Assembly: GCF_000195975.1 (NCBI RefSeq)
Contig: NC_005070.1
Span: 600,001-632,000, forward strand
Length of the DNA stretch: 32,000 bases
Direction: 5' to 3'
DNA from: Parasynechococcus marenigrum WH 8102
Lineage (GTDB): Bacteria; Cyanobacteriota; Cyanobacteriia; PCC-6307; Cyanobiaceae
Positions 2,001 through 32,000 of this stretch are shown here, one piece after another. The stretch's first letter is position 1; each line of letters starts with the position of its first letter. A program made the position numbers and the translations under genes. Below the pieces are notes generated by a model. That model made no database searches, was not told the origin of the DNA, and worked only from the letters and a program-made list of their open reading frames with translations.

Positions 2001-3040
2001 GCCAGATGTTGCTCGGTCGCAGCGCGGCCGAGCTGGAGAGCTGGGCGGTTGCTCAGGGGCAGAAGCCCTTTCGTGGGAGGCAGCTGCACGACTGGCTCTA
2101 CGCCAAGGGAGCCCGATCCCTGTCGGAGATCACCGTTCTGCCGAAGGCTTGGCGGGAGTCTCTCAAGGAAGACGGTGTTGAGGTCGGTCGCCTGAAGGAG
2201 GTGCATCGTTCGGTTGCTGCAGACGCGACCACCAAATTGCTGTTGTCCACCGATGACGGCGAGACGATCGAGACCGTTGGCATCCCCACTGATCAGCGGC
2301 TGACGGTCTGTGTGTCCAGCCAGGTGGGCTGTCCGATGGCCTGCCGTTTCTGCGCCACCGGTAAAGGAGGCCTGCAGCGCTCGCTGCGCACCCACGAGAT
2401 CGTTGATCAGGTGCTCAGTGTGCGAGAGGTGATGGATCGCCGGCCCTCCCACATCGTGTTCATGGGCATGGGGGAACCTCTCCTAAACAGCCAGGCGGTT
2501 CTCGATGCCATCCGCTGCCTGAACGACGACCTCGGGATTGGTCAACGTCGGATCACGGTGAGCACCGTTGGTGTTCCGAAAACCCTGCCACAGCTGGCCG
2601 AGCTGGCTCTGGCGACCCTCGGTCGGGCCCAGTTCACCCTTGCGGTGAGCCTTCATGCCCCCAACCAAGCGCTGCGGGAAGAGCTCATCCCCACGGCTCA
2701 TGCCTATCCCTACGAGGCCTTGCTGGAAGACTGTCGTCACTATCTGGCCGTGACCGGCCGTCGCGTCAGCTTCGAATACATCCTTCTGGGTGGTTTGAAC
2801 GATGCCCCCGAACACGCCGCAGAACTGGCCGATCGGGTGGGAGGGTTCCAGAGCCACGTGAACCTGATTGCCTACAACCCGATTGAAGAGGAGGAGTTTC
2901 AACGTCCCACCCGCGCCCGGATTGAGGGCTTCCAGCGTGTGCTCGAGCGTCGTGGTGTGGCCGTCAGTCTGCGCGCAAGTCGCGGCTTGGATCAGAACGC
3001 TGCCTGCGGTCAGTTACGACGTCGACGTCAGGGTAGCTGA
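1997..3040 (+). CDS. rlmN: 23S rRNA/tRNA (adenine-C2)-methyltransferase RlmN, radical SAM
   Basis: Radical-SAM cluster motif [12 protein letters not shown]-terminal [11 protein letters not shown] block and C-terminal ACGQL. The start is either GTG 1997 or ATG 2006. Confidence 0.93.
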
Positions 3041-3765
3041 GCTGCAATGAGCTTTTGATAGAGCTGAATGTCGTGTCCATAGGTCAGCTCAAATTGGTGT
3101 CGCACCCGATCGGGAAGCCGACCCGGTTCTGGTTGATCAGTTTGTAGGGCCTGACTCCTGTTGAGATGAGGTAGTTGTTGGCTAAAAGGGATGCCACGTT
3201 GCTCCATTAGCTCACTGAGTCGCTCCCAGTCTGTCTTTAGATTTTCGAGGCAGCCGATGTAATCAGGGAGCCTTCCTTTTGAGTCGCTGATCAGAAACGT
3301 TTGAGGTTGTGTATGAACATCCATCGAGTCAAGGCTCAGTTCACAAGTTAATTCGACAAACTCACTGAAGGTCATTGCCTTCGTGTAGCCGAGGCGCTGC
3401 ATAGCAGGGAAGATCGATGGTCGAAGGATTTTCTCTCGATAGCAAGAGAAAAGCCTTTGTAATGGCTCCCGTATGAAGGTGAAAGTAAATACTTTCTTGC
3501 GAATAGCAGTATATCTGTCTGGTTTTAAAAACATTGCCTCTGTTGTGCAAAGTTTCCAGAAGCGGTCGTTTGTTGGCTCTAGATTTCTTGCTGTGCGGGG
3601 GTTCTTGGCTGCGCTTGTTTTTACTAATTCTGATAAAATTGTTTTGATTGAAGTGTTCGCACACTTCGGGATCCGCGCATAAACGAGCTTGTGCTTGGGG
3701 ATGTAAAGGAAGCCCTTCCCTTTCACGGTCTGTTCGTTCTGCTTGAGCCGGACTTTACGAACCAC
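3028..3765 (-). CDS. Sulfotransferase, family-2 (carbohydrate sulfotransferase-like)
   Basis: 245-aa ORF in a lower-GC patch. It has a 5'-PAPS-binding-like motif RIPKCANTS, the block [18 protein letters not shown] and DVHTQPQ. The last 4 codons plus stop lie antisense inside the rlmN 3' end (13-nt convergent overlap). Confidence 0.8.
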
Positions 3766-5707: not shown

Positions 5708-5747
5708 ACAATGCAGCACTTTGATGGTTACCAAAGTGCTGCATTGT
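5708..5747. terminator. Perfect 15-bp stem / 10-nt loop hairpin between convergent genes (terminator or RNA-stability element)
   Basis: acaatgcagcacttt (5708-5722) pairs perfectly with aaagtgctgcattgt (5733-5747). The loop gatggttacc contains the TAA stop (5728-5730, minus strand) of the KpsT-like gene. No flanking U-tract on either strand, so it is not a canonical intrinsic terminator. Confidence 0.35.
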
Positions 5748-6576
5748 CACCGTCGTCCGGGTCGTCATTCTCCGGCAACGAAGAACTTTCGTACTCTATT
5801 TCATTGTCAATAGAATCGTCTATTGGGGCATCCTTGATGTTGCTCAAATACCATTGATGACATTCATCGATTTTGCCTTCATAGACGATGCTTCCCTTGT
5901 GGAGTACGATTCCGTCCTCGCAATATTGCTGTAATATACTAAAATCTTTATTCGCCATGATCAAGGGCTTGTCTTCGGTGCGGCTATTAAGTGCATTTTG
6001 GAATCTCAAGAATCGCTCCGACTTTTCGTTGGCCTTCAATGCGAAGATCTGAGGGATAATGTAAGCATCGAAATCGAACGCAAGCGAAACCGCTAGGTAA
6101 AACCTTGTCCGCATGAATTTATGGTAGACCCGCAGGGGTTTGTCGAAGAAACCGTCTTCTAGGCTTGCAATGGTTTGAATGACGTCTAAGTCATGGTTCC
6201 GTTGTCCGGCGTGGCCATAAATGCCTTGAAGAAATGCTGCATTCTGTCGGCCTGTTAGCGAGTTCAGTAACCCACCTCGTGCACCAAGCGGCCAGCTCGC
6301 ATTGCAATGAATGGTGACCTGTCCGTTCTGCACAGGAACAACGCCCGCTGCGCAATCGAGAAAGGCATGTGCTTCGCGAATGGAAGGTGAGATCACGCCA
6401 ACTCTTTGCCCTTGTTGCAATTGCCAGCTGACGTTATTGAGTAAGCGATTAGTTGTTTCTTTGGCGCCACTGACGTCACGTACAACACCCTGAAGTTCAA
6501 TCAAGGGCTGATTCGAGATGGAGAAGGGGGGCGTGTTCGAATTCTTGCCTGTCAACGTTGATGTTGCTATTCCCAT
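5728..6576 (-). CDS. KpsT-like ABC-transporter nucleotide-binding-domain homologue with degenerate catalytic motifs
   Basis: 282-aa ORF in a lower-GC patch. It aligns by eye along the whole length of capsule-export KpsT (SWPLG..GG...SLTGRQN, Y..FM.TRF.LAVSLAFDFDAYII, IMAN...L.QYC...IVL). Walker A, ABC signature, Walker B D-E and the H-loop His are all substituted. It has an acidic C-terminal tail. Confidence 0.8.
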   Translation of the reverse strand: MGIATSTLTGKNSNTPPFSISNQPLIELQGVVRDVSGAKETTNRLLNNVSWQLQQGQRVGVISPSIREAHAFLDCAAGVVPVQNGQVTIHCNASWPLGARGGLLNSLTGRQNAAFLQGIYGHAGQRNHDLDVIQTIASLEDGFFDKPLRVYHKFMRTRFYLAVSLAFDFDAYIIPQIFALKANEKSERFLRFQNALNSRTEDKPLIMANKDFSILQQYCEDGIVLHKGSIVYEGKIDECHQWYLSNIKDAPIDDSIDNEIEYESSSLPENDDPDDGDNAALW

Positions 6577-21611: not shown

Positions 21612-22175
21612 ATGCCCTTCGCCTGCCTCGCTGAGGCCAGTCATTGCTGCACGGTTGCGCTGCCCGGTGGCGAGAAGGCTGTGCTGCGGCGGTTTTTCCA
21701 GCGCCCGAAGCGATCAATGGCCGCCCTGCTCACCCGACAGCGGATGGACTGCAAGGGCGATGGTCGCTTCCTCTACGCATCGCGGCCGTTCCAGATCCTG
21801 CGTTTTGAGATCAGGCCAGAGGTGCTGTTTGCCGCGCATTGGTCGGATCAATCCCAGGGACTTGAGATTGCCTTTGAAGACTGCTGGATTCATGGCCTCG
21901 GCGCTATGCAGAACGCCATCCGCTTCGAGTGCACGGCGTTGCTTGTCCCCAAGCAGGAGGGTGTGGAGGCTCAGGCTCGAGCGGCAGTTGTGCTGTCATC
22001 GGACAGTCCGTTGATCGCGCTGCCGAATGGCCTGCGCCGACGTTTGGCTGAGCGGGCGTTGCAGCTGGTGTTTGCGCGGCTGGAGCGACGCTGCCAGGGC
22101 GGGCTGAAACGGGCCTTGCTGAATTGGATCGCGGAAGATGCAATGGGGTGTATTGATCGCAATCGTGAGAGTTAA
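21612..22175 (+). CDS. DUF1997-family protein
   Basis: GDGRFLYASRPFQILRFEIRPEV ... LVFARLERRCQGGLKRALLNW matches the DUF1997 pattern as I recall it. This is the last host-composition gene before the GC drop. Confidence 0.7.
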   Translation: MPFACLAEASHCCTVALPGGEKAVLRRFFQRPKRSMAALLTRQRMDCKGDGRFLYASRPFQILRFEIRPEVLFAAHWSDQSQGLEIAFEDCWIHGLGAMQNAIRFECTALLVPKQEGVEAQARAAVVLSSDSPLIALPNGLRRRLAERALQLVFARLERRCQGGLKRALLNWIAEDAMGCIDRNRES

Positions 22176-22198
22176 AGTCTTGCGACGCATCCGGTGAC

Positions 22199-23020
22199 AT
22201 GATCAAAATGCGAGCCGGACTTGTCGAACAGATCAAGTTGACGCTTGATCGTCTTTGGTTGCAAATCAGAATCGTTCTCGCGCTTTCTGAAACGGAGTTC
22301 GTCCTCAGAGCTGAAAAGGGATCCTTTGGTGCTTGGGGTGTTCTGTTTGAACCCCTGGCATTGATATTGACACTACTGGCTTTAAGAATTTTTATTCGGT
22401 TGAAGTCTACGGATTTCTTGAATCCTGTGCTCTGGCTGACGTGTGGAATCGCGCTCCTTTATATGTTCAGGAAAATTGGAATCAAGGCGCTGACGGGGGT
22501 TTCAAAGCGTCAGAAATTCTTTTTCTATCGTCGTATCCGTCCACTGGATACTTTGCTGGCGTCAGCGCTGATTGAAGCGAGAATTCATGGGGCAATTTTA
22601 GTCTTCGTCTTCATCGGCGTTTCATTTTGGAGTTGGCAGATCAAGTTGGACGATCCGGCTCTAGTACTAATCGATTTCCTTTTGACCGTTGCCCTGGGAT
22701 TGGGTATTGGTATCAGTGCTTTGGTGATCGGTCATCGCATCCCGATTGTCAAGGTCTTGACAAAATTTGGAATCAATCGCTTGCTTCTCTGGACGTCTGG
22801 AATTTTTTATGCCGTATACACACTTCCAGGCCCAGTTCGTCCGTTCGTGACTTGGAATCCATTGCTGCACTCTGTTGAATTGCTACGCCATGGCATCAAT
22901 GTGGCCTATCCCATACCTGGTATCAGCTTGCAGTACTTGCTTGTGTGCAGTTCTCTGAGCTGTGGATTTGGACTACTGTTTTATTTCCTCAATGAGGCTC
23001 TGCTTCTTGCCGATGACTGA
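22199..23020 (+). CDS. kpsM: ABC-2 type polysaccharide export permease, KpsM-like
   Basis: 273 aa with about 6 TM segments. The C-terminal block WNPLLHSVELLRHGI parallels E. coli KpsM WNPLVHVVELSREAV, and the overall layout matches. Confidence 0.85.
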   Translation: MIKMRAGLVEQIKLTLDRLWLQIRIVLALSETEFVLRAEKGSFGAWGVLFEPLALILTLLALRIFIRLKSTDFLNPVLWLTCGIALLYMFRKIGIKALTGVSKRQKFFFYRRIRPLDTLLASALIEARIHGAILVFVFIGVSFWSWQIKLDDPALVLIDFLLTVALGLGIGISALVIGHRIPIVKVLTKFGINRLLLWTSGIFYAVYTLPGPVRPFVTWNPLLHSVELLRHGINVAYPIPGISLQYLLVCSSLSCGFGLLFYFLNEALLLADD

Positions 23021-24236
23021 ACAGCCCCGCGTAACACCAACGGCTGCCCCGCGACTGAGGCTGGGTGACGGTGTTCGTCGTATCGAATCCTTTACAGGCG
23101 TCCAAACCAGTTCGCTCCTGCCGAGGCTTCGCTCTGGGCTTCAGGGAACATGGGGGAATCTGTTTAATGTTGGGACTTTAGCGGTCGCTTTCGTTGCCAT
23201 CTCGGGGGTGTATTGCTTCGGGATTGGCCGTGATCGCTATCAAGCGACATCTGAATTCGTAATCAAGCAGCCGATGCCGCCGGCGACGGCAACAACAACA
23301 GTTTTGGGTTCAATGCTCAGCTCCAGTGTTCTTTCATCGCTTGAGGATGGACGCTACTTGCAGGTTTATTTGAAATCCAATGCTGTGAAACAGGCTGTCT
23401 TCCCTGATTCTTCAGCCTTCAAGTCGACCTATGCGCCTCAGGCTCCTGATCGATGGAGTGGCCTGCGTGATGATGCCAATGAGCAAGAGCAGCTTGCATT
23501 TTTCCAACGGCAGCTCGAGGTGACCCCACAAGAGCTTTCAGGAACCATTCTACTGTCAACCAGTGCCTTTACTGCTGATGCTGCTTACCAACTTAATAAC
23601 AATCTTCTCAAACAAGCGCAACGCTTTGTCAACGAAGTGAATCAGTCAATCAGTGCTGATCAGCAGAGCTTTGCTGAGGAACAGGTGGCCTTAGCTAAAA
23701 CGCGCTTGAAAAAAGCCGGTGATGCACTGGAAGACTTTCAGGATCGTTATGGCCAATTGGATCCGCAGGGTGAACAGAATGCCACAACTGGTTTCATCAC
23801 TGGCTTGGAATCTCGGCTAGTCGATCTAAAGGTCGAGGAGGCCAGTCTTCGTCGCCAGTTTCGTGATCCCAATGCACCTGAGGTGGCTCTTGTTAGCGAT
23901 CAAGTGCGAGAACTGGAGCGTCAGATTCAGGAAGAGCGACAAAAAGCAGTTGGGTCAGGTGGACGCGACCTAAATAAACTGGCCCGTCAAGCTTCTGGTT
24001 TGCAATCAGATGTGAATTTTGCGAGTGAATCTCTAAGCTCGGCTATGCGTGCAGCTGAAAACAGTAGGATGGAGAGTCAGCGTCAGCTGAAATTCATTGT
24101 GATGCTAAGCAAGCCGCAAATGCCCTCTGGACCTGAGACATCGTGGCGTTGGAAGGCTTTCCTATCGTGCCTTGGTGTTTTGATCGTGGTCTGGGGTGTA
24201 GGAGGATTTATGCTGACGGCATTGCGGCGTGATTAA
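23013..24236 (+). CDS. kpsE: Capsule-export periplasmic adaptor / polysaccharide co-polymerase, KpsE/CtrB-like (PCP-3)
   Basis: N-terminal TM followed by DRYQATSEFVIK (the KpsE-type motif DRY.S...F.V), a long coiled-coil periplasmic region and a C-terminal TM. ATG 23013 overlaps the kpsM stop (ATGACTGA, 8 nt). Confidence 0.75.
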   Translation: MTEQPRVTPTAAPRLRLGDGVRRIESFTGVQTSSLLPRLRSGLQGTWGNLFNVGTLAVAFVAISGVYCFGIGRDRYQATSEFVIKQPMPPATATTTVLGSMLSSSVLSSLEDGRYLQVYLKSNAVKQAVFPDSSAFKSTYAPQAPDRWSGLRDDANEQEQLAFFQRQLEVTPQELSGTILLSTSAFTADAAYQLNNNLLKQAQRFVNEVNQSISADQQSFAEEQVALAKTRLKKAGDALEDFQDRYGQLDPQGEQNATTGFITGLESRLVDLKVEEASLRRQFRDPNAPEVALVSDQVRELERQIQEERQKAVGSGGRDLNKLARQASGLQSDVNFASESLSSAMRAAENSRMESQRQLKFIVMLSKPQMPSGPETSWRWKAFLSCLGVLIVVWGVGGFMLTALRRD

Positions 24237-24406
24237 AGATTAGTGTAATCAATACTTTTTATATCGATCGGTTGTGATTTTGTTTTTAGAGATCAATTGA
24301 AAAGGCCTATTGGGAGTTTGGATGAGAATGATTCGTTCCGAGCTTATAGATTAAATTGTTTTCCTGAATGTTATTGGTTTCGTCTGGAAAGTTGTGTTTT
24401 CATTGT

Positions 24407-27349
24407 TCAATTATCCTGCTGCACTCGTTTTACTTCTTCCAGGTAATTTTCTATTTGTCGCGCTAATCGACGATTGCCGCGACGGATGGTTTCCTTCCAG
24501 TCTTTAATGTCTACCTCATGAGGGTTGTCTCGAAGCAAGCTAACCTTGATGAAGGGGAACTCATGATCCTCAATGAGTGATTTCCATTCAGCATGAAGAA
24601 TATTGCCATTTGCATTCTTTGAATAAAGGCTTTCAAGAGTCATCCCATTCTCTTTGAGAAGAACAGAGAGTCCGACCTCATAGTTTTTGACAATGCTGCG
24701 TTTTTCATCCCAACACATTATGTTGTCCCAGAACTGCCAGAATGACGGACAAGAAACAGCGCGACGTTTAAACATTAGAAATGCAGATTGTAGATGGGGT
24801 TCGTACATGAGATTGTCCGTTAAACCAATCACATCCGCTTGGCTATTGGCAAGGCGATTGATCATGCCTGTTAGGGGACGAATCGGACCCCAAAAACTAT
24901 CGTTACTGAGCAATACAGATTGTCTTTGATCGATCAGATCTCGACAAAACCTTAGACCAGTCATCCAGCTTCCAAAGTCATATCCTTCATTACGTCGAAT
25001 AATGAGTCCATCACAAACGCTCCTGAGCGTAGTTAATTCACGGGGGTGGTGTAGTAAGGATGGTGTTGCGGCAACAACTTGGACGTAAAAATAACGCCGA
25101 TACTTCCTTAAAAGATCAAGAATGTCAGAGCGAATTGGTTTGTCGTTATTGGAGGCATATTGCGCAAAGATCAGTGGTATACGTTTGTCATTCTTTCTTG
25201 CCGGACGCCTCCAAGTCAACAATACTTCTTCTCGTGCTGGCCTGAGAGGAACCACTTGCTTCAGGATTGGTTCGTATCTTGTTGAATGATGATGAAGGAG
25301 GGGGCTGGTTAATGGATCACCTTGTGCATAAATTTTTTTATGCTTTAGGCGCAGACGTCCTGATTCACGTTGATGTCGTGCCCAAGCTAATCCAACTTGA
25401 TCTTTACCGCGGCTAATTGACTCGTAGTGAGTGATCGTTGCATGTGGCGTCACAACAACGCTACCCCCTGCATCCCTGAGTCTGAGGCAAAGGTCGACAT
25501 CATTGAATACAACGGCGAGTTTTTCATCAAATCCACCCACCATGTCAAACCGCTCGGCTTTCACCATCAAGCAGGCTGCAGAGGCTGCGGAAAACTCCTC
25601 TTGTGTTCTGAGAGGCAAAAGGCTGGCAATCACTTCTTGCTCAATAAGATGCTTGCCAGGTTCAAGAACGCAACGACGCTCACCAGGAATAATGAGAACT
25701 CCTTGATGTTGGATGCTGCCATCGGGGTAATTAAGCCTCGAACCAACGGCTACAGTTTTGGGATGTGCAAAGGGATCTAGAAGTACATCAAGAACACTTT
25801 CGGAGATAAACTTGATATCATTGTTTAGGAAAAGTAGAAAATCTCCTCTGCATAACTGGCGGGCTTTGTTATTTAGTCGCGAGTAATTAAATTTTTCGTC
25901 GAGGCGTATGCATTGAATATTGTCTTCCTTGATGGCTTCTCTGATCCATTCTTTTGTGGCATCTTCGACACTTCCGTTGTCAATTAAAACGATTTCATAG
26001 GTGCATTCTTTACCGGCATTAAGCTTGATCGAGTCAACACATACTCTTGTTAGTTCTACTTGATCTCTAAATGGAATCAATATGGATACCAAGGATGATT
26101 TATCTGTAGGACGAGACAAGTCATGGCATCCTGCCTGTAACGGGTTGGGCTTGAGCCCACTCTCTATTCCAAAATATTGTTTGGCATGCTGACTTCTGAT
26201 ACGACCGATCTCATCTAAATGCTGATCACTCAATGGGCATCGCTCTCTGGGCCAGCCTTGTTCAGGTATTGAAGGATTCTGAGAGCTTTGATGCTTGACG
26301 AGCGCTTGATGACAGTGGGTTGTCTTGATCGGATTGCGAGTTATCTGTAGGAGTACGTCCAGACGCAATGCCTCTAGGCAGGTATAACTAGGAGCAAATT
26401 TACACCGCTTTAATAATAGATCATAGGGTAGCGTTAGCAGCCCTCCAATGCCTCCGCGGGTACACAGACGAATGGCTGATACTGGGCTTCGGTATTGCCG
26501 ATGTTCATATCCGAGCCCATCATTCCAAAGTTGGTAAACAATAATGTCATCGCAGGTCAACACAGTGTCCACTTTTGTTTGTTGGAGTTGTCCCGCTAAA
26601 GCATGTAGGGCTCCATTGGCCAACATATCGCTGGCATGACAAATAGTGATCCACTCTGCAGAGTTCTCTCTTAGCAGATTTGGCAAAGAATTCATATTTG
26701 CCAAAGAGCAAGAAACCACATCGTTCCAACCACCTACAACAGCTAGTGATTGTGCTTGGTGTGTTGTTCCATCAATGACTAAAAGTAGATGCTTTGTTGT
26801 TAAAACGGAGGAATTTATTGCGGGTAACTTTGTTGGATGATATCGATCAAGGCCTGTCGCAACAGATTCTTGCCGACGGAAATGATCCCACCCCTCCGTC
26901 GCGAGATGTTCGAGCAAAGAGATTTTATTAGTGCGTGTAATTTGTCTCTGTGTTTTGTTCAGGCCTGCCTCATAGGCTCCAATGGGTATTGGCGGTAGAT
27001 CTCCGTAAAGAGACAGATGACCATTTAAAATCTGATTAAGCGTCCCACTCACTAGTAACTCATTGATTGATAAGAGGTGCCGATGTTGAAGTAGTAAGGG
27101 AATTTTTTGAATTCCATCTTCCAGTGGGTTCCATGTTGTTGGCTCCAACAGCAGGGAAATGGGTAAATATCTTGGGTTAAGTAGATGACAGTCTAAATAA
27201 TCATGCAAGCTTGCAAGATCTGATTTGATTAAATCAAGATCTATGCCGATACGTTTGAATAGTTTGAGTTGTTTTTGTATAGAGCCAATAGAGATTTTTC
27301 CATTTCTCCAATCTTGAAAAGATTTTGACCAGTGATCGTTGGGATTCAT
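24407..27349 (-). CDS. Multidomain glycosyltransferase: degenerate GT-like N-region + GT2 domain + rhamnan-synthesis-F (RgpF-like) domain
   Basis: 980 aa. The GT2 core is about aa 419-650 (VSILIPFRD, LIDNGS, FNYSRLNN, FLLFLNNDI, FNDVDLCLR; nt about 25400-26095). The RgpF-like region is about aa 722-945 (IFAQY, RRNEGYDFGSW, LSNDSFWGP, HLQSAFLMF; nt about 24515-25186). Confidence 0.9.
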   Translation of the reverse strand: MNPNDHWSKSFQDWRNGKISIGSIQKQLKLFKRIGIDLDLIKSDLASLHDYLDCHLLNPRYLPISLLLEPTTWNPLEDGIQKIPLLLQHRHLLSINELLVSGTLNQILNGHLSLYGDLPPIPIGAYEAGLNKTQRQITRTNKISLLEHLATEGWDHFRRQESVATGLDRYHPTKLPAINSSVLTTKHLLLVIDGTTHQAQSLAVVGGWNDVVSCSLANMNSLPNLLRENSAEWITICHASDMLANGALHALAGQLQQTKVDTVLTCDDIIVYQLWNDGLGYEHRQYRSPVSAIRLCTRGGIGGLLTLPYDLLLKRCKFAPSYTCLEALRLDVLLQITRNPIKTTHCHQALVKHQSSQNPSIPEQGWPRERCPLSDQHLDEIGRIRSQHAKQYFGIESGLKPNPLQAGCHDLSRPTDKSSLVSILIPFRDQVELTRVCVDSIKLNAGKECTYEIVLIDNGSVEDATKEWIREAIKEDNIQCIRLDEKFNYSRLNNKARQLCRGDFLLFLNNDIKFISESVLDVLLDPFAHPKTVAVGSRLNYPDGSIQHQGVLIIPGERRCVLEPGKHLIEQEVIASLLPLRTQEEFSAASAACLMVKAERFDMVGGFDEKLAVVFNDVDLCLRLRDAGGSVVVTPHATITHYESISRGKDQVGLAWARHQRESGRLRLKHKKIYAQGDPLTSPLLHHHSTRYEPILKQVVPLRPAREEVLLTWRRPARKNDKRIPLIFAQYASNNDKPIRSDILDLLRKYRRYFYVQVVAATPSLLHHPRELTTLRSVCDGLIIRRNEGYDFGSWMTGLRFCRDLIDQRQSVLLSNDSFWGPIRPLTGMINRLANSQADVIGLTDNLMYEPHLQSAFLMFKRRAVSCPSFWQFWDNIMCWDEKRSIVKNYEVGLSVLLKENGMTLESLYSKNANGNILHAEWKSLIEDHEFPFIKVSLLRDNPHEVDIKDWKETIRRGNRRLARQIENYLEEVKRVQQDN

Positions 27350-28254
27350 TGATTGTTCTTGCTTGCCAGTTTGAGAAGTTGTCGTACTAGTGCAGGGAAT
27401 AGCCCCCCTTTGTCAGAAGTTATGACCTCTAATTGTCTTTCTGTCTCGCTCATGTTCGTTCCTGACTCTTGACTCACTACCTCATCATGATCCCCTCTTA
27501 GATTATGATCTTCTATCTCTGGCTTATTAGATATCGGTTGATCCGATAAGGATTCTTTTAACTCTTTGTTCTCTTCTACAAGGAGTGCATATTTAGCTCT
27601 TTGTTTTCTTAGAGATTTTTGCAGTCGTTCGTTTTCCCGCACAAGGCAATCATAGTTACTTTGCATCTGCGTTAATTGATTTAAACTATTTTCAACTTCT
27701 TCAAAACTTGCTTCGCGGTCTAGGTTGACCTCCCACCAGTCCATGAGTGCGAGATCAATCAATGAGCCTTGGCTCAACCTTTGTAGATAGTTGCTGTCAG
27801 CTTCCAGGCCAAATAAGTGTGATTTTAGTTCTAGATCAAGGTAAATATCAATAATTCTTGGTTCTTTTCTCGCAATCTCTAGGCTTAGTAAGCTTGAAAG
27901 GGACTTGGGGCTGGGAAAGTTAATACTTTTATCTAGCAGTGGATTCTCACCATTACAAAGTCTTATGATTGATGTACTGTCAAGTGAATTCAGGCGCCAA
28001 CTTGACGAGATATTTTTGTATTTTGCAGATAACAAGGATAACTCTTCATAATATGCGCGAATTTCATTGCATGTTGTTGCGGTGCTTTCTTCGAGTCGTT
28101 TTTGTTCAAGCACTTGATTGGGAGCCGAATAAATTAATAGCACATTTTGAGGTTCATTATCAGAATTGATCGATGTAAGTGGTTTAAGTCCTGCTTTGGC
28201 TAGTTTGTCTCTTAGCGATGAAAGAATATTTGTTGTCGAATACCAGTACTGCAT
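27346..28254 (-). CDS. Hypothetical protein with C-terminal coiled coil, translationally coupled to the 980-aa glycosyltransferase
   Basis: 302 aa from ATG 28254, which is preceded by AGGA about 7-10 nt upstream; the track uses GTG 28308. Heptad-like region EEVENSLNQLTQMQSNYDCLVRENERLQKSLRKQRAKYALLVEENKELKESL. Its stop overlaps the GT start as ATGA (27346-27349). No family recognised. Confidence 0.6.
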   Translation of the reverse strand: MQYWYSTTNILSSLRDKLAKAGLKPLTSINSDNEPQNVLLIYSAPNQVLEQKRLEESTATTCNEIRAYYEELSLLSAKYKNISSSWRLNSLDSTSIIRLCNGENPLLDKSINFPSPKSLSSLLSLEIARKEPRIIDIYLDLELKSHLFGLEADSNYLQRLSQGSLIDLALMDWWEVNLDREASFEEVENSLNQLTQMQSNYDCLVRENERLQKSLRKQRAKYALLVEENKELKESLSDQPISNKPEIEDHNLRGDHDEVVSQESGTNMSETERQLEVITSDKGGLFPALVRQLLKLASKNNQ

Positions 28255-28280
28255 TTGATTCCTGATCCTTACACGCAGTC

Positions 28281-28286
28281 TATAAT
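28281..28286 (+). promoter_or_regulatory. Consensus -10 hexamer TATAAT in the divergent control region
   Basis: Exact TATAAT at 28281-28286, 22 nt upstream of ATG 28309. No good -35 at 17-bp spacing (attcct); TTGATT lies at 20-bp spacing. It overlaps the alternative ATG 28285. Confidence 0.2.
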
Positions 28287-29415
28287 GCAGAAAGCTCTCG
28301 AAGCTCACATGACGTCCAGTCTATGCCTAAGTGTATTAATAGGCTGTCCCGCCTCACCAACGCTTCTCCCTGAAAACCCTTGTTTGATTATTAATGCCGA
28401 GTCAATCGATAGGAAAGAATTGATTGCTCAGGAATCTTTTTGTGCACATTATCGTGAATTGTCGGCCGACGATGTAGTACTCCTCAATCAGACGGTGATA
28501 TCAGAACTTGATCATCAGATTGTTGAATGGCATAGTTTCTCAGACAGGCGATTTAATGGGCCTTCTCAATTATCAGAATTTTCCGAACAATATCCAAACT
28601 TAAGATTAGTTGAGAGCAGGAAGATTGAAGGGATCACTCTTTCTACTGTATTGGTGGATCAAAAAAGTCTTTCAGATCCACTTTCAACCTTTGAGCTTAT
28701 TTTACGTGAGGGTGATCCGTTAGTTGTTCTTCAAAGTGCAAAGGAGTGGTTGGCCCGATGTACTCGCATCACTTTGCGTGGTTTAGTCACTAGCTCTAAA
28801 TCTCGTGAGGCTGCTGAGGCATTTTTGGGGGCATCGGGCTTTTGCAAATCATCGGTTGATTCTTGTGTATGGACTCCTGAGCTTGAGGTGTCGTCACTGC
28901 ATCTATCCTTAATCAGATGTGGTTTGTTGGCCTTATTTAATGCTGATGTCTATCGAGAACTATATCCTCAGACGCAGGAAATGACAGATGTTGAACTGAT
29001 TGACCACTGGTTATCACAGCCTGATTTTCGAGATGTATCTAAAATAATGAAAGATGCTACTCAACGTAATCCAACTCCTCTCGCTGAATTGACGGACCAA
29101 GATCCCGCACTTCAGTTGTTGCAGAACATTTTTCCTTTTGATTTTTATCGTTCTCAAAGAACAGATCTCTCACAGATCCCTAACAGAGAGTTGATCAATC
29201 ACTATTGGACACATGGGCAATATGAGGGAATTGATCTCTCGGAATCAAATGTCAAAAATGTTCTCGGTAAAGATCAATCTTTGCAAGTCAACCGACTGAA
29301 TACTCGTATTCATGAACTAGAGCATCTTTTATCGTGCGCTAACGCACAGATTAGTGCAATGCAGAAATTGATTGTTAGTTCACGAGATTCGGGAGCTACC
29401 AATGAACAATACTGA
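28285..29415 (+). CDS. Hypothetical protein with two copies of a glycan-enzyme-associated F-x-x-x-Y...ELI-x-H motif and a coiled-coil tail
   Basis: The start is ambiguous (TTG 28255, ATG 28285, ATG 28309). From ATG 28285 the N-terminus MQKALEAHMTSSLCLSVLIGC carries a lipobox-like LIGC. The middle region weakly resembles the C-terminal half of FkbM-type methyltransferases (ITLSTVL..., FELILREGDPLVVLQSAKEWL) without a SAM-binding glycine motif. Confidence 0.6.
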   Translation: MQKALEAHMTSSLCLSVLIGCPASPTLLPENPCLIINAESIDRKELIAQESFCAHYRELSADDVVLLNQTVISELDHQIVEWHSFSDRRFNGPSQLSEFSEQYPNLRLVESRKIEGITLSTVLVDQKSLSDPLSTFELILREGDPLVVLQSAKEWLARCTRITLRGLVTSSKSREAAEAFLGASGFCKSSVDSCVWTPELEVSSLHLSLIRCGLLALFNADVYRELYPQTQEMTDVELIDHWLSQPDFRDVSKIMKDATQRNPTPLAELTDQDPALQLLQNIFPFDFYRSQRTDLSQIPNRELINHYWTHGQYEGIDLSESNVKNVLGKDQSLQVNRLNTRIHELEHLLSCANAQISAMQKLIVSSRDSGATNEQY

Positions 29416-30703
29416 TCAGATACTTGCCTGTCGCGTCTTGGCGAATGATTATTTATCAGGAAGATGGCAGAAAGTTACCAATACAGTACGTTCTCTGAAC
29501 GATTCAGCTGAATGTCGTAATTGTTCCACTTTCAGTGACTTCGCGCGATTTCTTTTAAGTTTATCTCCTTCTGAAATTTTGAAGGAGGATTGGAAGCCTG
29601 CTTTAGTGCCACAACGTACCTCTTTTACTGAGGCACGTCTTCGGTACTGCGCAACTCATTTGCTTGGTGCTTGTAATAATTTTGCGTGCAGAAATGATCA
29701 ACAATATCGCTATAGGCTTCAATTATTTTGCCTTAGCTTAAGTGACTTGCTCAAATCTGATGCTGATTTTATACTCATTTCTGATATATTTTCATTTTCC
29801 GACTCTTTCATATCACTTAGTCAGAGTATCCGTATATTCTATTTGGCTTATAGGCGTCGTTTGCATGAGTCATTTCCTCAACAGATGACGGTTGTTTTAG
29901 GGATGCACCGTAGTGGAACATCAGCGTTAACTGGACTGCTTGGTAATTTTGGTATTTCAGGACCTAATGATCCATTAGGTGCCACCGAAAATAATCTGTT
30001 GGGCTATTGGGAATCTACTTCTTTAGTCACTTCTTCTGATCAATTTTTGTTGTCTCAACATAGCCATTGGTCGCAACTTTACCACTGGTCTTTTGGTTGG
30101 TGGAAATCAGCGGCGGCTCTAGACTGGATTGATTCTTATTGGCACGATTTGCAAAATGCTTACAATACGAATGAACACTTTGTCTTGAAAGATCCTCGCC
30201 TTTGTATTCTGTTCGAGGGCATGATTCCATGTCTAGTTGAGTCTCTAGTGCAGTTAGATTTTTTGTTGATATTACGTTCTCCTGTTGAGGTTGTTATTTC
30301 TTTGTGCAAGGCAGAAAAAATCTCTCCATACGACGCTCTTAATTTGTGGATTGGCTCAGTATTTCGCGCAGAATGTATGTCACGTCCGTATTCTCGCAAT
30401 ATTCTCACGTACTACCAGCTCCTTAATAGTCCACAAGCTATTGTGGATTCATTGGGCCTGAGCTGGAATCCAAGCCTTATGGAATCAAGGCTTGATCAAG
30501 CAACATCTTTTTTAAGACCCTCATTGTACCGAACCAAGGTTGATAACGTAAGGGAATCGTTTGTGGCTACAAATCCTGAGTTGACTAGTCTTCTTGTTTT
30601 GGCTGAACAGATTTTTGATTGTTTTCAATATCCAACCCCAGATATTGCTCTTACATCAGAGAAATTAAAGTACCAGTGGCTCGAAATCTTGGCAGATCGT
30701 TAG
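29402..30703 (+). CDS. Sulfotransferase (P-loop-type GMHRSGTS family) fused to an unknown ~165-aa N-terminal domain
   Basis: PAPS-binding-like motif VVLGMHRSGTSALTGLL (nt about 29901-29924 encodes GMHRSGTS), followed by LGYWES. ATG 29402 overlaps the upstream gene by 14 nt. Confidence 0.8.
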   Translation: MNNTDQILACRVLANDYLSGRWQKVTNTVRSLNDSAECRNCSTFSDFARFLLSLSPSEILKEDWKPALVPQRTSFTEARLRYCATHLLGACNNFACRNDQQYRYRLQLFCLSLSDLLKSDADFILISDIFSFSDSFISLSQSIRIFYLAYRRRLHESFPQQMTVVLGMHRSGTSALTGLLGNFGISGPNDPLGATENNLLGYWESTSLVTSSDQFLLSQHSHWSQLYHWSFGWWKSAAALDWIDSYWHDLQNAYNTNEHFVLKDPRLCILFEGMIPCLVESLVQLDFLLILRSPVEVVISLCKAEKISPYDALNLWIGSVFRAECMSRPYSRNILTYYQLLNSPQAIVDSLGLSWNPSLMESRLDQATSFLRPSLYRTKVDNVRESFVATNPELTSLLVLAEQIFDCFQYPTPDIALTSEKLKYQWLEILADR

Positions 30704-30731
30704 CAAACGCTTCTGTAAATAACTTTGCAGC

Positions 30732-32000
30732 CTACTGTCGCAGATAGTAATCTTTCATCCTCCTGAAATTGGACCTCAGTTCAATTCCTTGCTTGACGCT
30801 TTCTGGTGAAGTGTTAATACTAAAGTCTTCATGAATCTTTGTTAGATTTGGATTGTAAAATAAATCACTTGGTAGCTCCCCATTGCTTTGAATGTCGTAT
30901 TGATTTAGCATGAAGTTTATCTCTCTCTTGAAACGTTCTTTCTTTTCGGGAGAATCTTCAGTTCCGCGGGATATTGATTCGTGGTGAAACAGCTCAGCAT
31001 ACGGGGTGAAAATATTTCGATATCCTCTTGCGTGAACCCTCATGCAAAAGTCGACATCGTTAAATGCGATTGTGAGGTCTTGTTCATTGAGGCCGCCTAC
31101 CTCGTTGAAAATTTCTCTGCGAATTGCGAGACATGCTGCAGTTACTGCTGTCATCTGTTGAACATATTGAAGTCTGTCGACATAACCCGGACTATCTCCC
31201 GGAAAGTACTTATGGGCATGACCGGCGACTTGGCCAATTCCAATAACTACACCTCCATGCTGAATAGTCCTATTTGAATAGTATAACTTTGCACCGACAC
31301 ATCCAACATCTGGCCTTGAAGTGTGGGAAACAATTTCTTGGAGCCATTTGCTAGAGATGACCTCGACATCATTGTTTACCAGGACAACAATATCTGCTGT
31401 TGATTTTCTGACTGCATAATTATTGATGGCCGAGTAGTTGAACTTCTTGTTGTATTTTATGATGTTTATTTTTTCGCCGTGCACCCTCTTCAGATTCTTG
31501 AATAGATTCTTTGTGGCGACTTCTTCGCTCTGATTGTCAACTACGGTGATTGTATAGTTCGTGTAGGTCGTCTTGGTAATGATTGAATCCACTGCGAGAT
31601 TTAATACCTCTGCTTGATCTCGAGTGGGGATAATGAGCTCAACAGAGGGTGACTTATCTGGTATGTGCCACTGGCAGGTGAATCGGTTCTTGGCCTTGAT
31701 TCGGGCTGTCGCCCTTACGCCTCCACGTCGATGCTGCTCGTCCAGGAAATGCTGGACTGCCTTATGACCGCTTTCAGTTGTGTAATCCTTGCTGTCTGGG
31801 TTGCTGGCGGTTGATTCGGAATGTGCTCGCCAGTGGTACAAGACTCTAGGGATGTGAATAATTTGGTCCGGGGAAGATTCCAGGACAGTCCTGAGTGCAA
31901 GATCGTGATCTTGGCTTCCCTCGAAGCCAACTCGGAAGCCACCAATTTGTTTGAGGATCTCCCTTCTGTAAACACCCAAGTGTGAGATGAAATTGTAAGA
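30732..32000 (-). CDS. Tandem GT2-family glycosyltransferase, N-terminus outside the window
   Basis: The frame is open to base 32000 (SYNFISH precedes the track TTG at 31979). The tail of a first GT2 domain is GVYRREILKQIGGFRVGFEGSQDHDLALR. A complete second GT2 domain follows (VELIIPTRD, VVDNQS, FNYSAINN, VVLVNNDVEV, FNDVDFCMR). Confidence 0.9.
   Translation of the reverse strand, partial: SYNFISHLGVYRREILKQIGGFRVGFEGSQDHDLALRTVLESSPDQIIHIPRVLYHWRAHSESTASNPDSKDYTTESGHKAVQHFLDEQHRRGGVRATARIKAKNRFTCQWHIPDKSPSVELIIPTRDQAEVLNLAVDSIITKTTYTNYTITVVDNQSEEVATKNLFKNLKRVHGEKINIIKYNKKFNYSAINNYAVRKSTADIVVLVNNDVEVISSKWLQEIVSHTSRPDVGCVGAKLYYSNRTIQHGGVVIGIGQVAGHAHKYFPGDSPGYVDRLQYVQQMTAVTAACLAIRREIFNEVGGLNEQDLTIAFNDVDFCMRVHARGYRNIFTPYAELFHHESISRGTEDSPEKKERFKREINFMLNQYDIQSNGELPSDLFYNPNLTKIHEDFSINTSPESVKQGIELRSNFRRMKDYYLRQ

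What the first reader, a model, noticed from the sequence alone, without database searches (positions are those of the whole stretch)
22180..32000. Low-GC island: candidate sulfated surface-glycan biosynthesis/export system with unassigned components
Composition drops sharply right after the DUF1997 stop and stays low to the window end. The gene set is coherent. It holds a KpsM-like permease, a KpsE-like adaptor, a GT2+RgpF enzyme, a tandem-GT2 enzyme and a sulfotransferase fusion. It also holds two proteins I cannot assign (27346-28254 and 28285-29415). Four short operons alternate in orientation with coupled starts and stops. Together with the second sulfotransferase at 3028-3765 this points to a sulfated extracellular polysaccharide or glycoconjugate. 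Canonical group-2 capsule parts are not visible in the window: no KpsT with working motifs, no KpsD/Wza-type outer-membrane export protein and no KpsC/KpsS lipid-linker enzymes. The machinery is therefore either split across the genome or mechanistically different. Islands of this kind in marine picocyanobacteria are generally linked to phage and grazer interactions.
Basis: partly seen in the sequence, partly recalled or inferred. Interest (0 to 1): 0.75.

Follow-up and report, generated by a model that had tools for sequence, protein, structure and literature searches.

The report
Conserved low-GC rhamnose-glycan locus in Synechococcus
The low-GC block is real, but it is a surface-sugar assembly and export locus conserved at the same chromosomal site in every related marine Synechococcus locus examined, not a strain-specific island, and its core is an uncharacterised trio of two coiled-coil proteins and a sulfotransferase.

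Summary
GC falls from ~0.62 to ~0.44 right after DUF1997, and the KpsM-like, KpsE-like, GT2+RgpF, tandem-GT2 and sulfotransferase calls are supported. The window comes from Synechococcus WH8102, genes SYNW0639-0645.

Three corrections are needed.
1. The low-GC block ends about 1.1 kb past the window. There the tandem-GT2 gene overlaps rmlB, the last gene of a host-GC rmlA-C-D-B operon, so the product is a rhamnose-containing glycan.
2. It is not an accessory island. The same genes, in the same order, at the same site and with the same low GC, occur in every relative examined. What varies is the allele, not the gene content: divergence peaks in the centre, segments form a recombination mosaic, and one protein carries a 54-aa copy-number repeat.
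3. The two "unassignable" proteins both contain coiled coils. With the sulfotransferase they form a module that recurs beside rml/RgpF genes in distant picocyanobacteria. The P5 N-domain is fused elsewhere to glycan methyltransferases and glycosyltransferases.

Best model: ABC-transporter-dependent glycan assembly with a sulfating, coiled-coil scaffold or terminator module similar to WbdD. This part is inferred. The transporter ATPase and outer-membrane component are encoded elsewhere. I rate it a new variant of a known kind, of moderate interest.

The parts
21612..22175 (+). DUF1997 gene. This is the conserved left flank at host GC; the composition break follows its stop codon.
   Evidence: Pfam DUF1997 4.5e-11. 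GC3 0.707. It anchors the locus in all 19 related loci.
22199..23020 (+). KpsM-like ABC-2 permease (SYNW0639 by inference). A divergent family member.
   Evidence: NCBIfam KpsM E=7e-29 (101.6 bits, cut-off 300) and Pfam ABC2_membrane 25.7 bits (cut-off 26.9). It stays 75-99% identical across all related loci, better conserved than DUF1997.
23013..24236 (+). KpsE-like PCP-3 adaptor (SYNW0640 by inference). Its start overlaps the kpsM stop by 8 nt.
   Evidence: TIGR01010 BexC/CtrB/KpsE E=1e-53, below the curated cut-off. Called as 407 aa on public contigs.
24407..27349 (-). 980-aa glycosyltransferase (SYNW0641): an unassigned ~415-aa N-terminal region, then a GT2 domain, then an RgpF (rhamnan synthesis F) domain.
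   Evidence: Pfam RgpF 1.8e-22 (residues 773-942) and GT2 2.7e-16 (residues 422-545). The N-terminal 416 aa have no Pfam hit at E<=10. Tag taken from PMC2874817.
27346..28254 (-). P4 (SYNW0642 by inference), 302 aa. It has a small alpha/beta N-domain (residues 1-145), one long helix predicted as a coiled coil (166-237), a disordered linker, and a basic C-terminal helix (289-298). Its stop overlaps the start of the GT2+RgpF gene by 4 nt.
   Evidence: AF2 model: N-domain pLDDT 70-93, helix ~90. No Pfam or NCBIfam family. No PDB fold match with E<0.1. Coiled-coil length varies among homologs. Family members sit beside P6-like genes in L010 and L012.
27544..27759 (-). The P4 long helix / predicted coiled coil (residues 166-237).
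28285..29415 (+). P5 (SYNW0643), 376 aa. It has a ~200-aa N-domain (P5N), one 54-aa repeat unit, a related FPFDFY..HYW..G.YEG unit, and a C-terminal predicted coiled coil. Its stop overlaps the P6 start by 14 nt.
   Evidence: 100% match to 84588.SYNW0643. Domain and repeat layout. The P5N family has 71 representatives, with the domain at or near the N-terminus and followed by coiled coil. P5N is fused elsewhere to GT2+GT1, WbsX+RgpF, FkbM, Methyltransf_24 and RMNT_CmcI domains.
28924..29085 (+). The single copy in WH8102 of the 54-aa (162-bp) repeat unit. Other strains carry 2, 3 or 4 copies.
   Evidence: Protein variants of 376/430/484/530 aa. A 162-bp tandem array, 3.7 copies at 99% identity, in strain A15-24.
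29402..30703 (+). P6 (SYNW0644 by inference), 433 aa: a helical N-domain (~1-160) followed by a divergent PAPS-type sulfotransferase domain (~160-400).
   Evidence: The family has more than 1730 members. 18 of 36 sampled members hit Sulfotransfer_3 (best 1.6e-7). GMHRSGTS, R292-x-P-x5-S300 and E204 are invariant. P6 itself has no Pfam hit. The domain is 29% identical to a protein in the M. avium glycopeptidolipid cluster.
30732..32000 (-). C-terminal 422 aa of the 792-aa tandem-GT2 glycosyltransferase (SYNW0645). The gene starts off-window at equivalent position 33110, where it overlaps the rmlB stop.
   Evidence: Pfam GT2 families. Full gene and the rmlB/D/C/A genes upstream are seen on contig L003.

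Best explanation
This is the surface-glycan locus SYNW0639-0645 of Synechococcus (Parasynechococcus) WH8102. It is functionally continuous with the adjacent rmlA-C-D-B operon.

Shown:
- dTDP-L-rhamnose synthesis genes are translationally coupled to a tandem-GT2 enzyme.
- A second large enzyme carries GT2 and RgpF domains.
- A KpsM-like ABC-2 permease and a KpsE-like adaptor open the locus.
- P6 belongs to a large family with the PAPS-binding motifs of sulfotransferases.
- P4 and P5 contain coiled coils, and they travel with P6-family genes next to rml/RgpF genes in distant genomes.

Inferred mechanism: a rhamnose-containing polysaccharide is built on a lipid carrier at the cytoplasmic face of the inner membrane by the two multi-domain glycosyltransferases. 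P6 sulfates it using PAPS. P4 and P5 act as coiled-coil scaffolds that hold the enzymes together and may set or terminate chain length, as WbdD- and WbbB-type terminators do. The finished chain is exported by KpsM, an ATPase encoded elsewhere, and KpsE.

The low GC is a long-standing property of the locus and not a mark of recent transfer. Variation among strains lies in old, recombining alleles and in the P5 repeat number.
For: Identity: P5 is a 100% match to 84588.SYNW0643, and taxid 84588 is WH 8102.

Rhamnose: rmlA, rmlC, rmlD and rmlB all score above the NCBIfam equivalog cut-offs. The rmlB stop overlaps the tandem-GT2 start. An RgpF domain is present.

Export: KpsM-like and KpsE-like hits.

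Sulfation: family-level Sulfotransfer_3 hits and invariant PAPS motifs. A related domain occurs in the M. avium rhamnose/6-deoxyhexose glycopeptidolipid cluster.

Module: homologs of P4, P5 and P6 co-occur next to rmlACDB and RgpF enzymes, at host GC, in contig L010. P4-like and P6-like proteins plus further coiled-coil proteins co-occur in L012.

Scaffold or terminator reading:
- P4 has a confident 72-residue helix, a variable-length coiled coil and a basic C-terminal helix.
- P5N sits N-terminal to a coiled coil and is fused elsewhere to a rhamnosyl O-methyltransferase, FkbM and Methyltransf_24 methyltransferases, and GT2/GT1/WbsX/RgpF enzymes.
- P5 and P6 are translationally coupled.
- In characterised ABC-dependent systems the terminator lies in a protein with a coiled-coil molecular ruler (PMC11231755, PMC3482155).

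Conservation: synteny and low GC in all examined relatives.

Old alleles and mosaicism: fourfold-site identity between WH8102 and A15-24 is 0.85-0.94 in the flanks and 0.44-0.51 in kpsM/kpsE. Against L008 the whole island is at 0.43-0.54.
Against: - No ATPase, outer-membrane exporter, initiating transferase or ligase lies within ~37 kb, so the pathway is incomplete as seen.
- P6 itself fails Pfam.
- KpsM and KpsE score far below the curated family cut-offs.
- The published WH8102 LPS is described as an alpha-1,4-glucose chain with a single rhamnose, and the review mentions neither a rhamnan nor sulfate (PMC4515613 citing Snyder 2009). The predicted polymer has therefore never been observed.
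- The P5 structure model is unusable (pLDDT 42).
- P4 has no structural match.
- The methyltransferase-like reading of P5N is inconclusive (hhalign 5.5%).
- No interaction or activity data exist. The ruler/terminator role rests on analogy of architecture only.
- No paper in the searchable library links a sulfotransferase to chain termination.
Confidence: 0.55

Rival explanations
1. One reading: a horizontally acquired, strain-variable accessory island from a low-GC donor, kept because it changes the cell surface seen by phages and grazers.
For: GC 0.44 against 0.62, with a sharp left boundary. Surface-glycan content. A phylum-wide survey says marine picocyanobacteria have lost most EPS export genes, so this locus stands out (PMC4594306).
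Against: The same gene order, site and composition are present in every relative examined, down to flank identities of ~72-79%. No tRNA lies in the window and no integrase is called in the Synechococcus loci. The operon crosses the composition boundary into host-GC rml genes. Low GC3 is kept in lineages whose fourfold sites are near saturation, so it is not an unameliorated recent import. A single ancient acquisition before these lineages split cannot be excluded.
Confidence: 0.1
2. The locus makes or decorates lipopolysaccharide. It would supply the rhamnose residue reported in WH8102 LPS or a short O-chain, with KpsM acting as a Wzm-type permease.
For: WH8102 LPS is reported to contain rhamnose (PMC4515613). 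ABC-2 permeases serve both O-antigen and capsule pathways, as established for Wzm and KpsM. Multi-domain GTs with coiled-coil partners are typical of O-polysaccharide systems (PMC11231755).
Against: Four glycosyltransferase domains, a sulfotransferase and a KpsE-type (PCP-3) adaptor are far more than a single rhamnose needs. KpsE is a capsule-type component. No ligase or Wzt lies in the locus. The review of the reported LPS composition mentions no sulfate.
Confidence: 0.2
3. The locus builds the glycan attached to cell-surface or S-layer proteins (SwmA/SwmB) of motile clade III Synechococcus. This would resemble the ABC-dependent, capped poly-rhamnan S-layer glycans of Geobacillus.
For: All named genomes carrying P4/P5 homologs (WH8102, WH8103, A15-24, A15-28, A18-40, A18-46.1, BOUM118, RS9915) are, from memory, clade III, which is the motile clade. 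SwmA is a glycoprotein (own knowledge). S-layer rhamnans are made by the same type of pathway (own knowledge; the topic of PMC2943079, listed but not read).
Against: The same architecture occurs in lineages with fumC only 72-79% identical, probably outside clade III. No oligosaccharyltransferase lies in the locus. As far as I recall, published motility transposon screens hit other regions.
Confidence: 0.1
4. P5 is a secreted protein or lipoprotein, as annotated in several genomes ('putative conserved secreted protein'). It would act in the periplasm or outer membrane and perhaps replace the missing KpsD/Wza exporter.
For: The N-terminus MTSSLCLSVLIGC resembles a lipobox. NCBI records carry the 'secreted' annotation. 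An outer-membrane component is missing from the locus.
Against: The cysteine is not conserved outside the marine Synechococcus group, where the motif reads VGAP, IGSS or VGVP. The hydrophobic stretch is short and uncharged. The same domain sits at the N-terminus of SAM- and NDP-sugar-dependent enzymes, which must be cytoplasmic. P5 is translationally coupled to a PAPS-dependent enzyme. The C-terminal helix is polar.
Confidence: 0.05

Closest known systems
ABC-transporter-dependent O-polysaccharide assembly with coiled-coil terminators (E. coli O8/O9a WbdA-WbdD-Wzm/Wzt; Klebsiella O12 WbbB, O4 and O7)
   Same: Multi-domain polymerising glycosyltransferases, including dTDP-Rha-dependent modules in Klebsiella O7. 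An ABC-2 permease. Partner proteins built as a catalytic or other domain plus a long coiled coil plus a C-terminal interaction or membrane region. Chain modification at the cytoplasmic face (PMC3482155, PMC11231755).
   Different: No Wzt with a carbohydrate-binding module is visible. The adaptor is KpsE-type. The candidate modifying enzyme is a sulfotransferase rather than a methyltransferase, kinase or Kdo transferase. The coiled coils sit on separate proteins (P4, P5) with new N-domains. One of them has a copy-number-variable 54-aa repeat. None of this has been tested experimentally.
E. coli group 2 capsule export (KpsM, KpsT, KpsE, KpsD with KpsC/S/F/U)
   Same: The KpsM-like permease and KpsE-like adaptor are adjacent and translationally coupled.
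   Different: KpsT, KpsD and KpsC/S/F/U are absent from ~37 kb. Both hits fall well below the curated cut-offs. WH8102 LPS lacks Kdo (PMC4515613), so a Kdo linker is unlikely.
Rhamnan pathways (streptococcal Rgp/Gac; Pseudomonas aeruginosa common polysaccharide antigen)
   Same: rmlABCD together with an RgpF-family domain and ABC-2 export (PMC3560663 listed; other pathway details are own knowledge).
   Different: The RgpF match covers only profile positions 15-200 of 503 and is fused to GT2. No RgpA/B/G equivalents were identified. A sulfotransferase and coiled-coil proteins are added.
Bacterial polysaccharide and glycolipid sulfotransferases (Pfam Sulfotransfer_3; rhizobial LpsS/KpsS; mycobacterial Stf enzymes; Synechocystis synechan xss sulfotransferases). 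The named enzymes are from memory.
   Same: The 5'-PSB and 3'-PB PAPS-binding motifs, and a location inside a glycan gene cluster.
   Different: P6 carries an extra ~160-aa helical N-domain conserved across its family. P6 itself is too divergent for Pfam. Synechan is made by a Wzx/Wzy-type pathway rather than an ABC-dependent one (own knowledge).
Low-GC O-antigen and capsule loci of enterobacteria and pneumococci
   Same: A fixed chromosomal site between conserved flanks, low GC, deep allelic divergence, and mosaic recombination.
   Different: Here the gene content and order are the same in all lineages examined. Only sequence and repeat number vary.

Membership tests
Group 2 capsule (Kps) export system | KpsM ABC-2 permease | tested here: inconclusive
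   NCBIfam KpsM equivalog E=7e-29 but 101.6 bits against a cut-off of 300. Pfam ABC2_membrane 25.7 bits against 26.9.
Group 2 capsule (Kps) export system | KpsT ATPase next to KpsM | tested here: not met
   No ABC signature and no Walker A motif in any long ORF of the window, L003, L005, L014 or L015. No ABC_tran gene is called in ~37 kb. The rest of the genome could not be searched.
Group 2 capsule (Kps) export system | KpsE (PCP-3) adaptor | tested here: inconclusive
   TIGR01010 E=1e-53 with near full-length coverage, but 182.7 bits against a cut-off of 437.5.
Group 2 capsule (Kps) export system | KpsD/Wza outer-membrane exporter and KpsC/KpsS Kdo-linker enzymes | tested here: not met
   None are among the called genes or Pfam hits of the locus in WH8102, A15-24 or A15-28.
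ABC-transporter-dependent O-polysaccharide pathway with a terminator/ruler | Multi-domain polymerising glycosyltransferases beside an ABC-2 permease | tested here: met
   GT2+RgpF (980 aa) and GT2+GT2 (792 aa) sit with the KpsM-like permease. This is met by domain content only; activity was not tested.
ABC-transporter-dependent O-polysaccharide pathway with a terminator/ruler | Chain-terminating enzyme carried on a coiled-coil protein | tested here: inconclusive
   Coiled coils are present in P4 (confident AF2 helix 166-237) and P5. The candidate modifying enzyme P6 is a separate protein coupled to P5. P5N is fused to methyltransferases in other organisms. There are no activity or interaction data.
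ABC-transporter-dependent O-polysaccharide pathway with a terminator/ruler | Wzt ATPase with a carbohydrate-binding domain that recognises the cap; an initiating transferase; an O-antigen ligase | not testable with these tools
   None are in the locus. The WH8102 genome outside the window and loci could not be scanned.
PAPS-dependent sulfotransferases (Pfam Sulfotransfer_3, PF13469) | Match to the family model | tested here: inconclusive
   P6 itself has no hit at E<=10. 18 of 36 aligned homologs hit PF13469, best 1.6e-7.
PAPS-dependent sulfotransferases (Pfam Sulfotransfer_3, PF13469) | 5'-phosphosulfate loop and 3'-phosphate motif | tested here: met
   L166-GMHRSGTSA-175 and R292/P294/S300 are invariant in 36 sequences down to 22% identity. 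Assigning these to the PAPS-binding motifs rests on established knowledge of the family.
dTDP-L-rhamnose pathway (RmlA, B, C, D) | All four enzymes above the curated equivalog cut-offs | tested here: met
   rmlA 499 bits (cut-off 361), rmlC 228 (156), rmlD 270 (224), rmlB 416 (365), on contig L003 immediately beyond the window.
Horizontally acquired genomic island | Atypical base composition | tested here: met
   GC 0.44 against 0.62, and GC3 0.34-0.50 against 0.69-0.76.
Horizontally acquired genomic island | Variable presence among close relatives | tested here: not met
   The locus is present, with the same order and composition, in every related locus recovered.
Horizontally acquired genomic island | Mobility hallmarks (flanking tRNA, integrase, direct repeats) | tested here: not met
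   No tRNA or tmRNA in the window. No integrase or transposase among the called genes of the Synechococcus loci. Flanking direct repeats were not searched.

The most novel reading that the evidence does not exclude
P4, P5 and P6 form a new kind of split chain-length ruler and terminator for ABC-dependent glycan assembly. In this reading sulfate, rather than methyl, methyl-phosphate or Kdo, caps or marks the finished rhamnose-containing chain. The spacing element is tuned between strains by expansion and contraction of a 162-bp repeat in P5 and by the P4 coiled-coil length. The result would be strain-specific glycan lengths that change susceptibility to phages and grazers without any gene gain or loss.
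Probability: 0.15. Interest if true: 0.8.

Novelty: new variant of a known kind. Interest (0 to 1): 0.5.

Why it matters
Marine Synechococcus is a major ocean primary producer, and its cell surface decides which phages and grazers can attack it. The group is thought to have lost most polysaccharide-export genes (PMC4594306), and the only WH8102 surface glycan described chemically is a very simple LPS (PMC4515613). A conserved locus that encodes a rhamnose-based, probably sulfated polymer with its own export components points to an undescribed surface layer.

Two further results matter. First, low GC at a glycan locus can be an old, maintained feature with conserved gene content, so composition alone is a poor proxy for "accessory island". 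Second, the P4-P5-P6 module gives concrete, testable candidates for how chain length and modification are controlled outside the enterobacterial models. Natural variants with 1 to 4 P5 repeats are ready for comparison.

Tried and rejected
- A genome-collection scan with DUF1997 found one relative only, and the source genome itself was not returned.
- The P5 structure prediction failed (pLDDT 42), so no fold search was possible for it.
- The idea that the P5 N-domain is an FkbM-type methyltransferase got probability 0.1% with a low-diversity profile. With a 72-sequence profile it got 5.5%, aligned in the expected register. I left this as inconclusive.
- PDB profile searches for the P6 family and the P5N family returned only helical or coiled-coil noise.
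- P4N, P5N and P6 are not related to each other (hhalign <1%). No P4N- or P5N-like domain hides in the N-terminal regions of the glycosyltransferases.
- Promoter and terminator scans were at chance level.
- The cluster-member look-up gave no organism names for distant homologs.
- Literature searches for the locus tags found one incidental mention. Searches for phage-resistance work on these genes found nothing specific.
- Neither P5 nor P6 has a homolog in sequenced phages. The single hit for P6 is a mis-filed M. avium gene cluster.
- The lipoprotein or secreted reading of P5 was considered and rejected.

Full report
**1. Observation.** The composition break is real. One-kb windows run at GC 0.60-0.68 between 7000 and 22000 and at 0.39-0.52 from 22000 to the window end. 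Per gene, GC3 is 0.69-0.76 in the flanking genes. It is 0.50 in kpsM, 0.47 in kpsE, 0.385 in GT2+RgpF, 0.34-0.35 in P4, P5 and P6, and 0.47 in the tandem GT2. The left edge is sharp, between the DUF1997 stop at 22175 and the kpsM start at 22199.

The KpsM-like and KpsE-like proteins give strong E-values but score well below the curated family cut-offs. GT2+RgpF and the tandem GT2 are clear. The upstream Sulfotransfer_2 gene at 3028-3765 is clear. The 'sulfotransferase fusion' P6 has no Pfam hit of its own. The four alternating transcription units with overlapping stops and starts follow from the coordinates on public contigs.

**2. Source and true extent.** P5 matches '84588.SYNW0643' at 100%, and taxid 84588 is Parasynechococcus marenigrum (Synechococcus) WH 8102. 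A paper names SYNW0641 and SYNW0645 as glycosyltransferases, so the block is SYNW0639-0645.

Identical public contigs extend past the window (zero mismatches over 17.6 kb). The tandem-GT2 gene is 792 aa and starts at window-equivalent 33110. There it overlaps the stop of rmlB. Upstream of rmlB, on the same strand, lie rmlD, rmlC and rmlA, all above the NCBIfam equivalog cut-offs. These four genes sit at host GC (0.58-0.65). The low-GC block therefore ends at about 33.1-33.4 kb, and one operon crosses the composition boundary.

**3. Not an accessory island.**
- In the complete genomes of strains A15-24 and A15-28 the whole series is present in the same order. The series runs helicase, fumC, DUF1997, kpsM, kpsE, GT2+RgpF, P4, P5, P6, GT2-GT2, rmlBDCA, PEMT. 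Island GC is 0.44 against 0.62-0.63 in the flanks.
- The same architecture appears in a single-cell genome (L004) and in metagenome contigs L007, L008, L014 and L015. In the last two, P6 is only 39-41% identical.
- A metagenome scan with a DUF1997 alignment returned 13 loci. In all 12 that extend downstream, kpsM follows DUF1997 directly, and kpsE follows it wherever the contig continues (11 of the 12). GC drops at the same point. This holds even where DUF1997 is only 51% identical and fumC about 72%.
- No tRNA, tmRNA or Rfam element lies in the window.

**4. What does vary.** Divergence is graded. Where the flanks are about 80% identical (fumC 79%, rmlB 81-83%), KpsM is 82% and KpsE 72%. The two glycosyltransferases are 56-60%, and P4, P5 and P6 are 34-41%.

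Identity at fourfold sites is a crude proxy for synonymous divergence. It shows a mosaic:
- WH8102 against A15-24: flanks and most island genes are at 0.84-0.94, but kpsM is 0.51 and kpsE 0.44.
- WH8102 against L008: flanks are at 0.67-0.82 and the whole island is at 0.43-0.54.
- L016 and L019 share WH8102's kpsM/kpsE allele (0.91-1.00), yet L016 has only 86% amino-acid identity in P4.

Old alleles are therefore exchanged in segments by homologous recombination while gene content stays fixed. Low GC3 persists in lineages whose fourfold sites are near saturation. It is a maintained property, and I cannot explain it.

**5. P6.** The protein belongs to a family of more than 1730 proteins, mostly 430-445 aa long. 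In a 36-sequence alignment reaching down to 22% identity, several positions are invariant: L166-GMHRSGTSA-175, G201, W203-E-S205, K263-D-P-R266, R292, P294 and S300. By established knowledge of sulfotransferases, these correspond to the 5'-phosphosulfate loop and the 3'-phosphate motif. Eighteen of the 36 members hit Pfam Sulfotransfer_3. The first ~160 residues form a conserved, unassigned helical domain. The catalytic domain is 29% identical to a protein at the head of the Mycobacterium avium glycopeptidolipid cluster, beside a TDP-glucose dehydratase, methyltransferases and rhamnosyltransferase RtfA. A sulfotransferase role is well supported by sequence but untested.

**6. P4.** The family is small, with 96 clusters. 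The AlphaFold model is confident for a small alpha/beta N-domain (pLDDT 70-93) and for a single 72-residue helix (pLDDT about 90). A disordered linker and a short basic C-terminal helix follow. In homologs the helical segment varies in length through 'ENKDLKSKIDL'-type repeats. Foldseek finds no solved structure below E=0.14. P4-family domains occur next to P6-family genes in two unrelated contexts, L010 (E=9e-17) and L012 (E=3e-14).

**7. P5.**
- The family has 136 clusters.
- The protein consists of a ~200-aa N-domain (P5N), a 54-aa unit, a related unit and a C-terminal predicted coiled coil. The 54-aa unit is present once in WH8102 and 2, 3 or 4 times in other strains, giving variants of 376, 430, 484 and 530 aa.
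- In A15-24 the repeat is a 162-bp DNA tandem array, 3.7 copies at 99% identity, so the expansion is recent.
- An exhaustive profile search found 171 representatives. Seventy-one carry P5N, nearly all at or within ~60 residues of the N-terminus, and the family consensus continues into coiled coil.
- In other organisms P5N is fused to GT2+GT1, to WbsX+RgpF, to an FkbM methyltransferase and to Methyltransf_24. In P0409 a full-length P5-like region is fused to a rhamnosyl O-methyltransferase domain. These partners use SAM or nucleotide sugars, so P5N works in the cytoplasm.
- The 'secreted protein' annotation in some genomes is probably an artefact. The lipobox-like cysteine is not conserved in distant members.
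- P5N keeps a motif series (LxVxVGxP, LVVEADP, W..FND.RLNGP, PNL, QGDPL..L.G.G.WL, WL...GF) that resembles the layout of FkbM-type methyltransferases. Profile comparison gives only 5.5% probability, so this is unresolved.
- The P5 structure model was unusable.

**8. The module.** Contig L010 is a high-GC picocyanobacterium-like contig. It carries rmlACDB, then a WbsX+RgpF enzyme, then an 801-aa coiled-coil protein with a P4-type N-domain. After these come a P5-like protein, a P6-like protein, a second P5-like/P6-like pair, and an RgpF enzyme, all at host GC. P4, P5 and P6 are therefore a conserved functional set tied to rhamnose and RgpF chemistry. They are not cargo of this particular low-GC region. 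The three are unrelated to each other in sequence.

**9. Mechanism.** The closest characterised systems are the ABC-transporter-dependent O-polysaccharide pathways. [quoted passage not shown] By analogy I propose the following steps:
- The two large enzymes polymerise a rhamnose-containing chain on a lipid carrier.
- P6 sulfates it.
- P4 and P5 scaffold the complex and may set or end chain length.
- KpsM, with an ATPase encoded elsewhere, and KpsE export the product.

Shown: gene content, coupling, domain families, conservation and co-occurrence. Inferred: the polymer itself, sulfation, every protein interaction, and any ruler or terminator role.

Several facts count against completeness. No ATPase, outer-membrane exporter, initiating transferase or ligase lies within ~37 kb. 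The described WH8102 LPS is a glucose chain with a single rhamnose, and the review mentions no sulfate (PMC4515613). If the polymer exists, it has not yet been seen.

**10. Comparison and novelty.**
- It is not a member of the group 2 capsule system, because KpsT, KpsD and KpsC/S are absent and the KpsM and KpsE scores fall below the family cut-offs.
- It works most like an ABC-dependent O-polysaccharide or rhamnan pathway. It differs in three ways: a KpsE-type adaptor, a sulfotransferase as the candidate modifying enzyme, and coiled coils carried on two separate proteins with new N-domains, one with a variable repeat.
- No paper in the searchable library links a sulfotransferase to chain termination.
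- The genes are already annotated in a model genome, but only as hypothetical proteins or as 'possible'/'putative' glycosyltransferases, and they are essentially unstudied.

I rate it a new variant of a known kind.

**11. Verdict.** The accessory-island reading is refuted. Interest is moderate at 0.5. A specialist would not be surprised by a low-GC glycan locus. Three things are useful and testable: the conserved P4-P5-P6 module, the natural repeat-number variants, and the demonstration that low GC here is ancient and maintained.

Noticed in passing
window 3028-3765 (-) and 5728-6576 (-): Two further small low-GC islets lie inside host-GC core genes. One is a Sulfotransfer_2-family gene (GC 0.474, GC3 0.50; Pfam 1.6e-24). 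The other is a 282-aa ORF with no Pfam hit even at E<=10 (GC 0.478, GC3 0.52). Whether they are conserved among relatives, or linked in function to the glycan locus 19 kb away, was not tested.
   Followed up: partly
L005 10619-11211 (strain A15-24); window 28924-29085: The P5 repeat is a 162-bp DNA tandem array, 3.7 copies at 99% identity, in A15-24 and a single copy in WH8102. It is a recent length polymorphism inside a coding gene.
   Followed up: yes
window 22199-24236 compared with L005, L006, L008, L016, L019: kpsM-kpsE exists as at least two deeply diverged allele classes among close relatives. Fourfold-site identity is 0.44-0.52 against 0.85-0.94 in the adjacent genes, while protein identity stays at 77-90%. 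This implies segmental allele replacement under strong purifying selection.
   Followed up: partly
window 22199 to window-equivalent ~33400, and all related loci: Low GC3 is kept at this locus in lineages whose fourfold sites are near saturation relative to WH8102, and the GC3 trough is centred on P4-P6. No explanation (donor signature, expression, reduced biased gene conversion) was tested.
   Followed up: no
window 28255-28284: Only 30 bp separate the divergent starts of P4 and P5, so their promoters must lie inside coding sequence or overlap. Consensus promoter scans were at chance level.
   Followed up: partly
L014 4258-5049 (+): One divergent version of the locus carries an extra 263-aa gene, with no Pfam hit, between kpsE and the GT2+RgpF gene. 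It is the only gene-content difference seen.
   Followed up: no
L008 8216-9019 and 8805-9962 (-): In this metagenome contig the P5 homolog is split into two overlapping ORFs. This may be a frameshift, an assembly error in the repeat, or a pseudogene.
   Followed up: no
L010 5837-6184 and 9066-13464: The distant module copy has a tandem duplication of the P5-like/P6-like pair (two identical 439-aa P6-like genes). An rve_3 integrase fragment lies nearby.
   Followed up: no
L029 5791-6876 (M. avium AF143772.2, protein AAD44204.1): A protein annotated 'A-protein-like' at the head of the M. avium glycopeptidolipid cluster matches the P6 sulfotransferase domain (29% identity, E=4e-13). It may be an unrecognised glycolipid sulfotransferase. 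The record sits in the phage collection although it is a bacterial gene cluster.
   Followed up: partly
L002 (estuary metagenome ERZ922678, 110-kb contig); A contig carrying kpsM and flanking genes identical to the open-ocean strain WH8102 appears in an estuary metagenome assembly. The exact KpsM protein is listed in 101 blocks of the collection. The genome-collection scan, however, did not return WH8102 itself. Possible causes are repeated sequencing of the lab strain, contamination, or masking.
   Followed up: no
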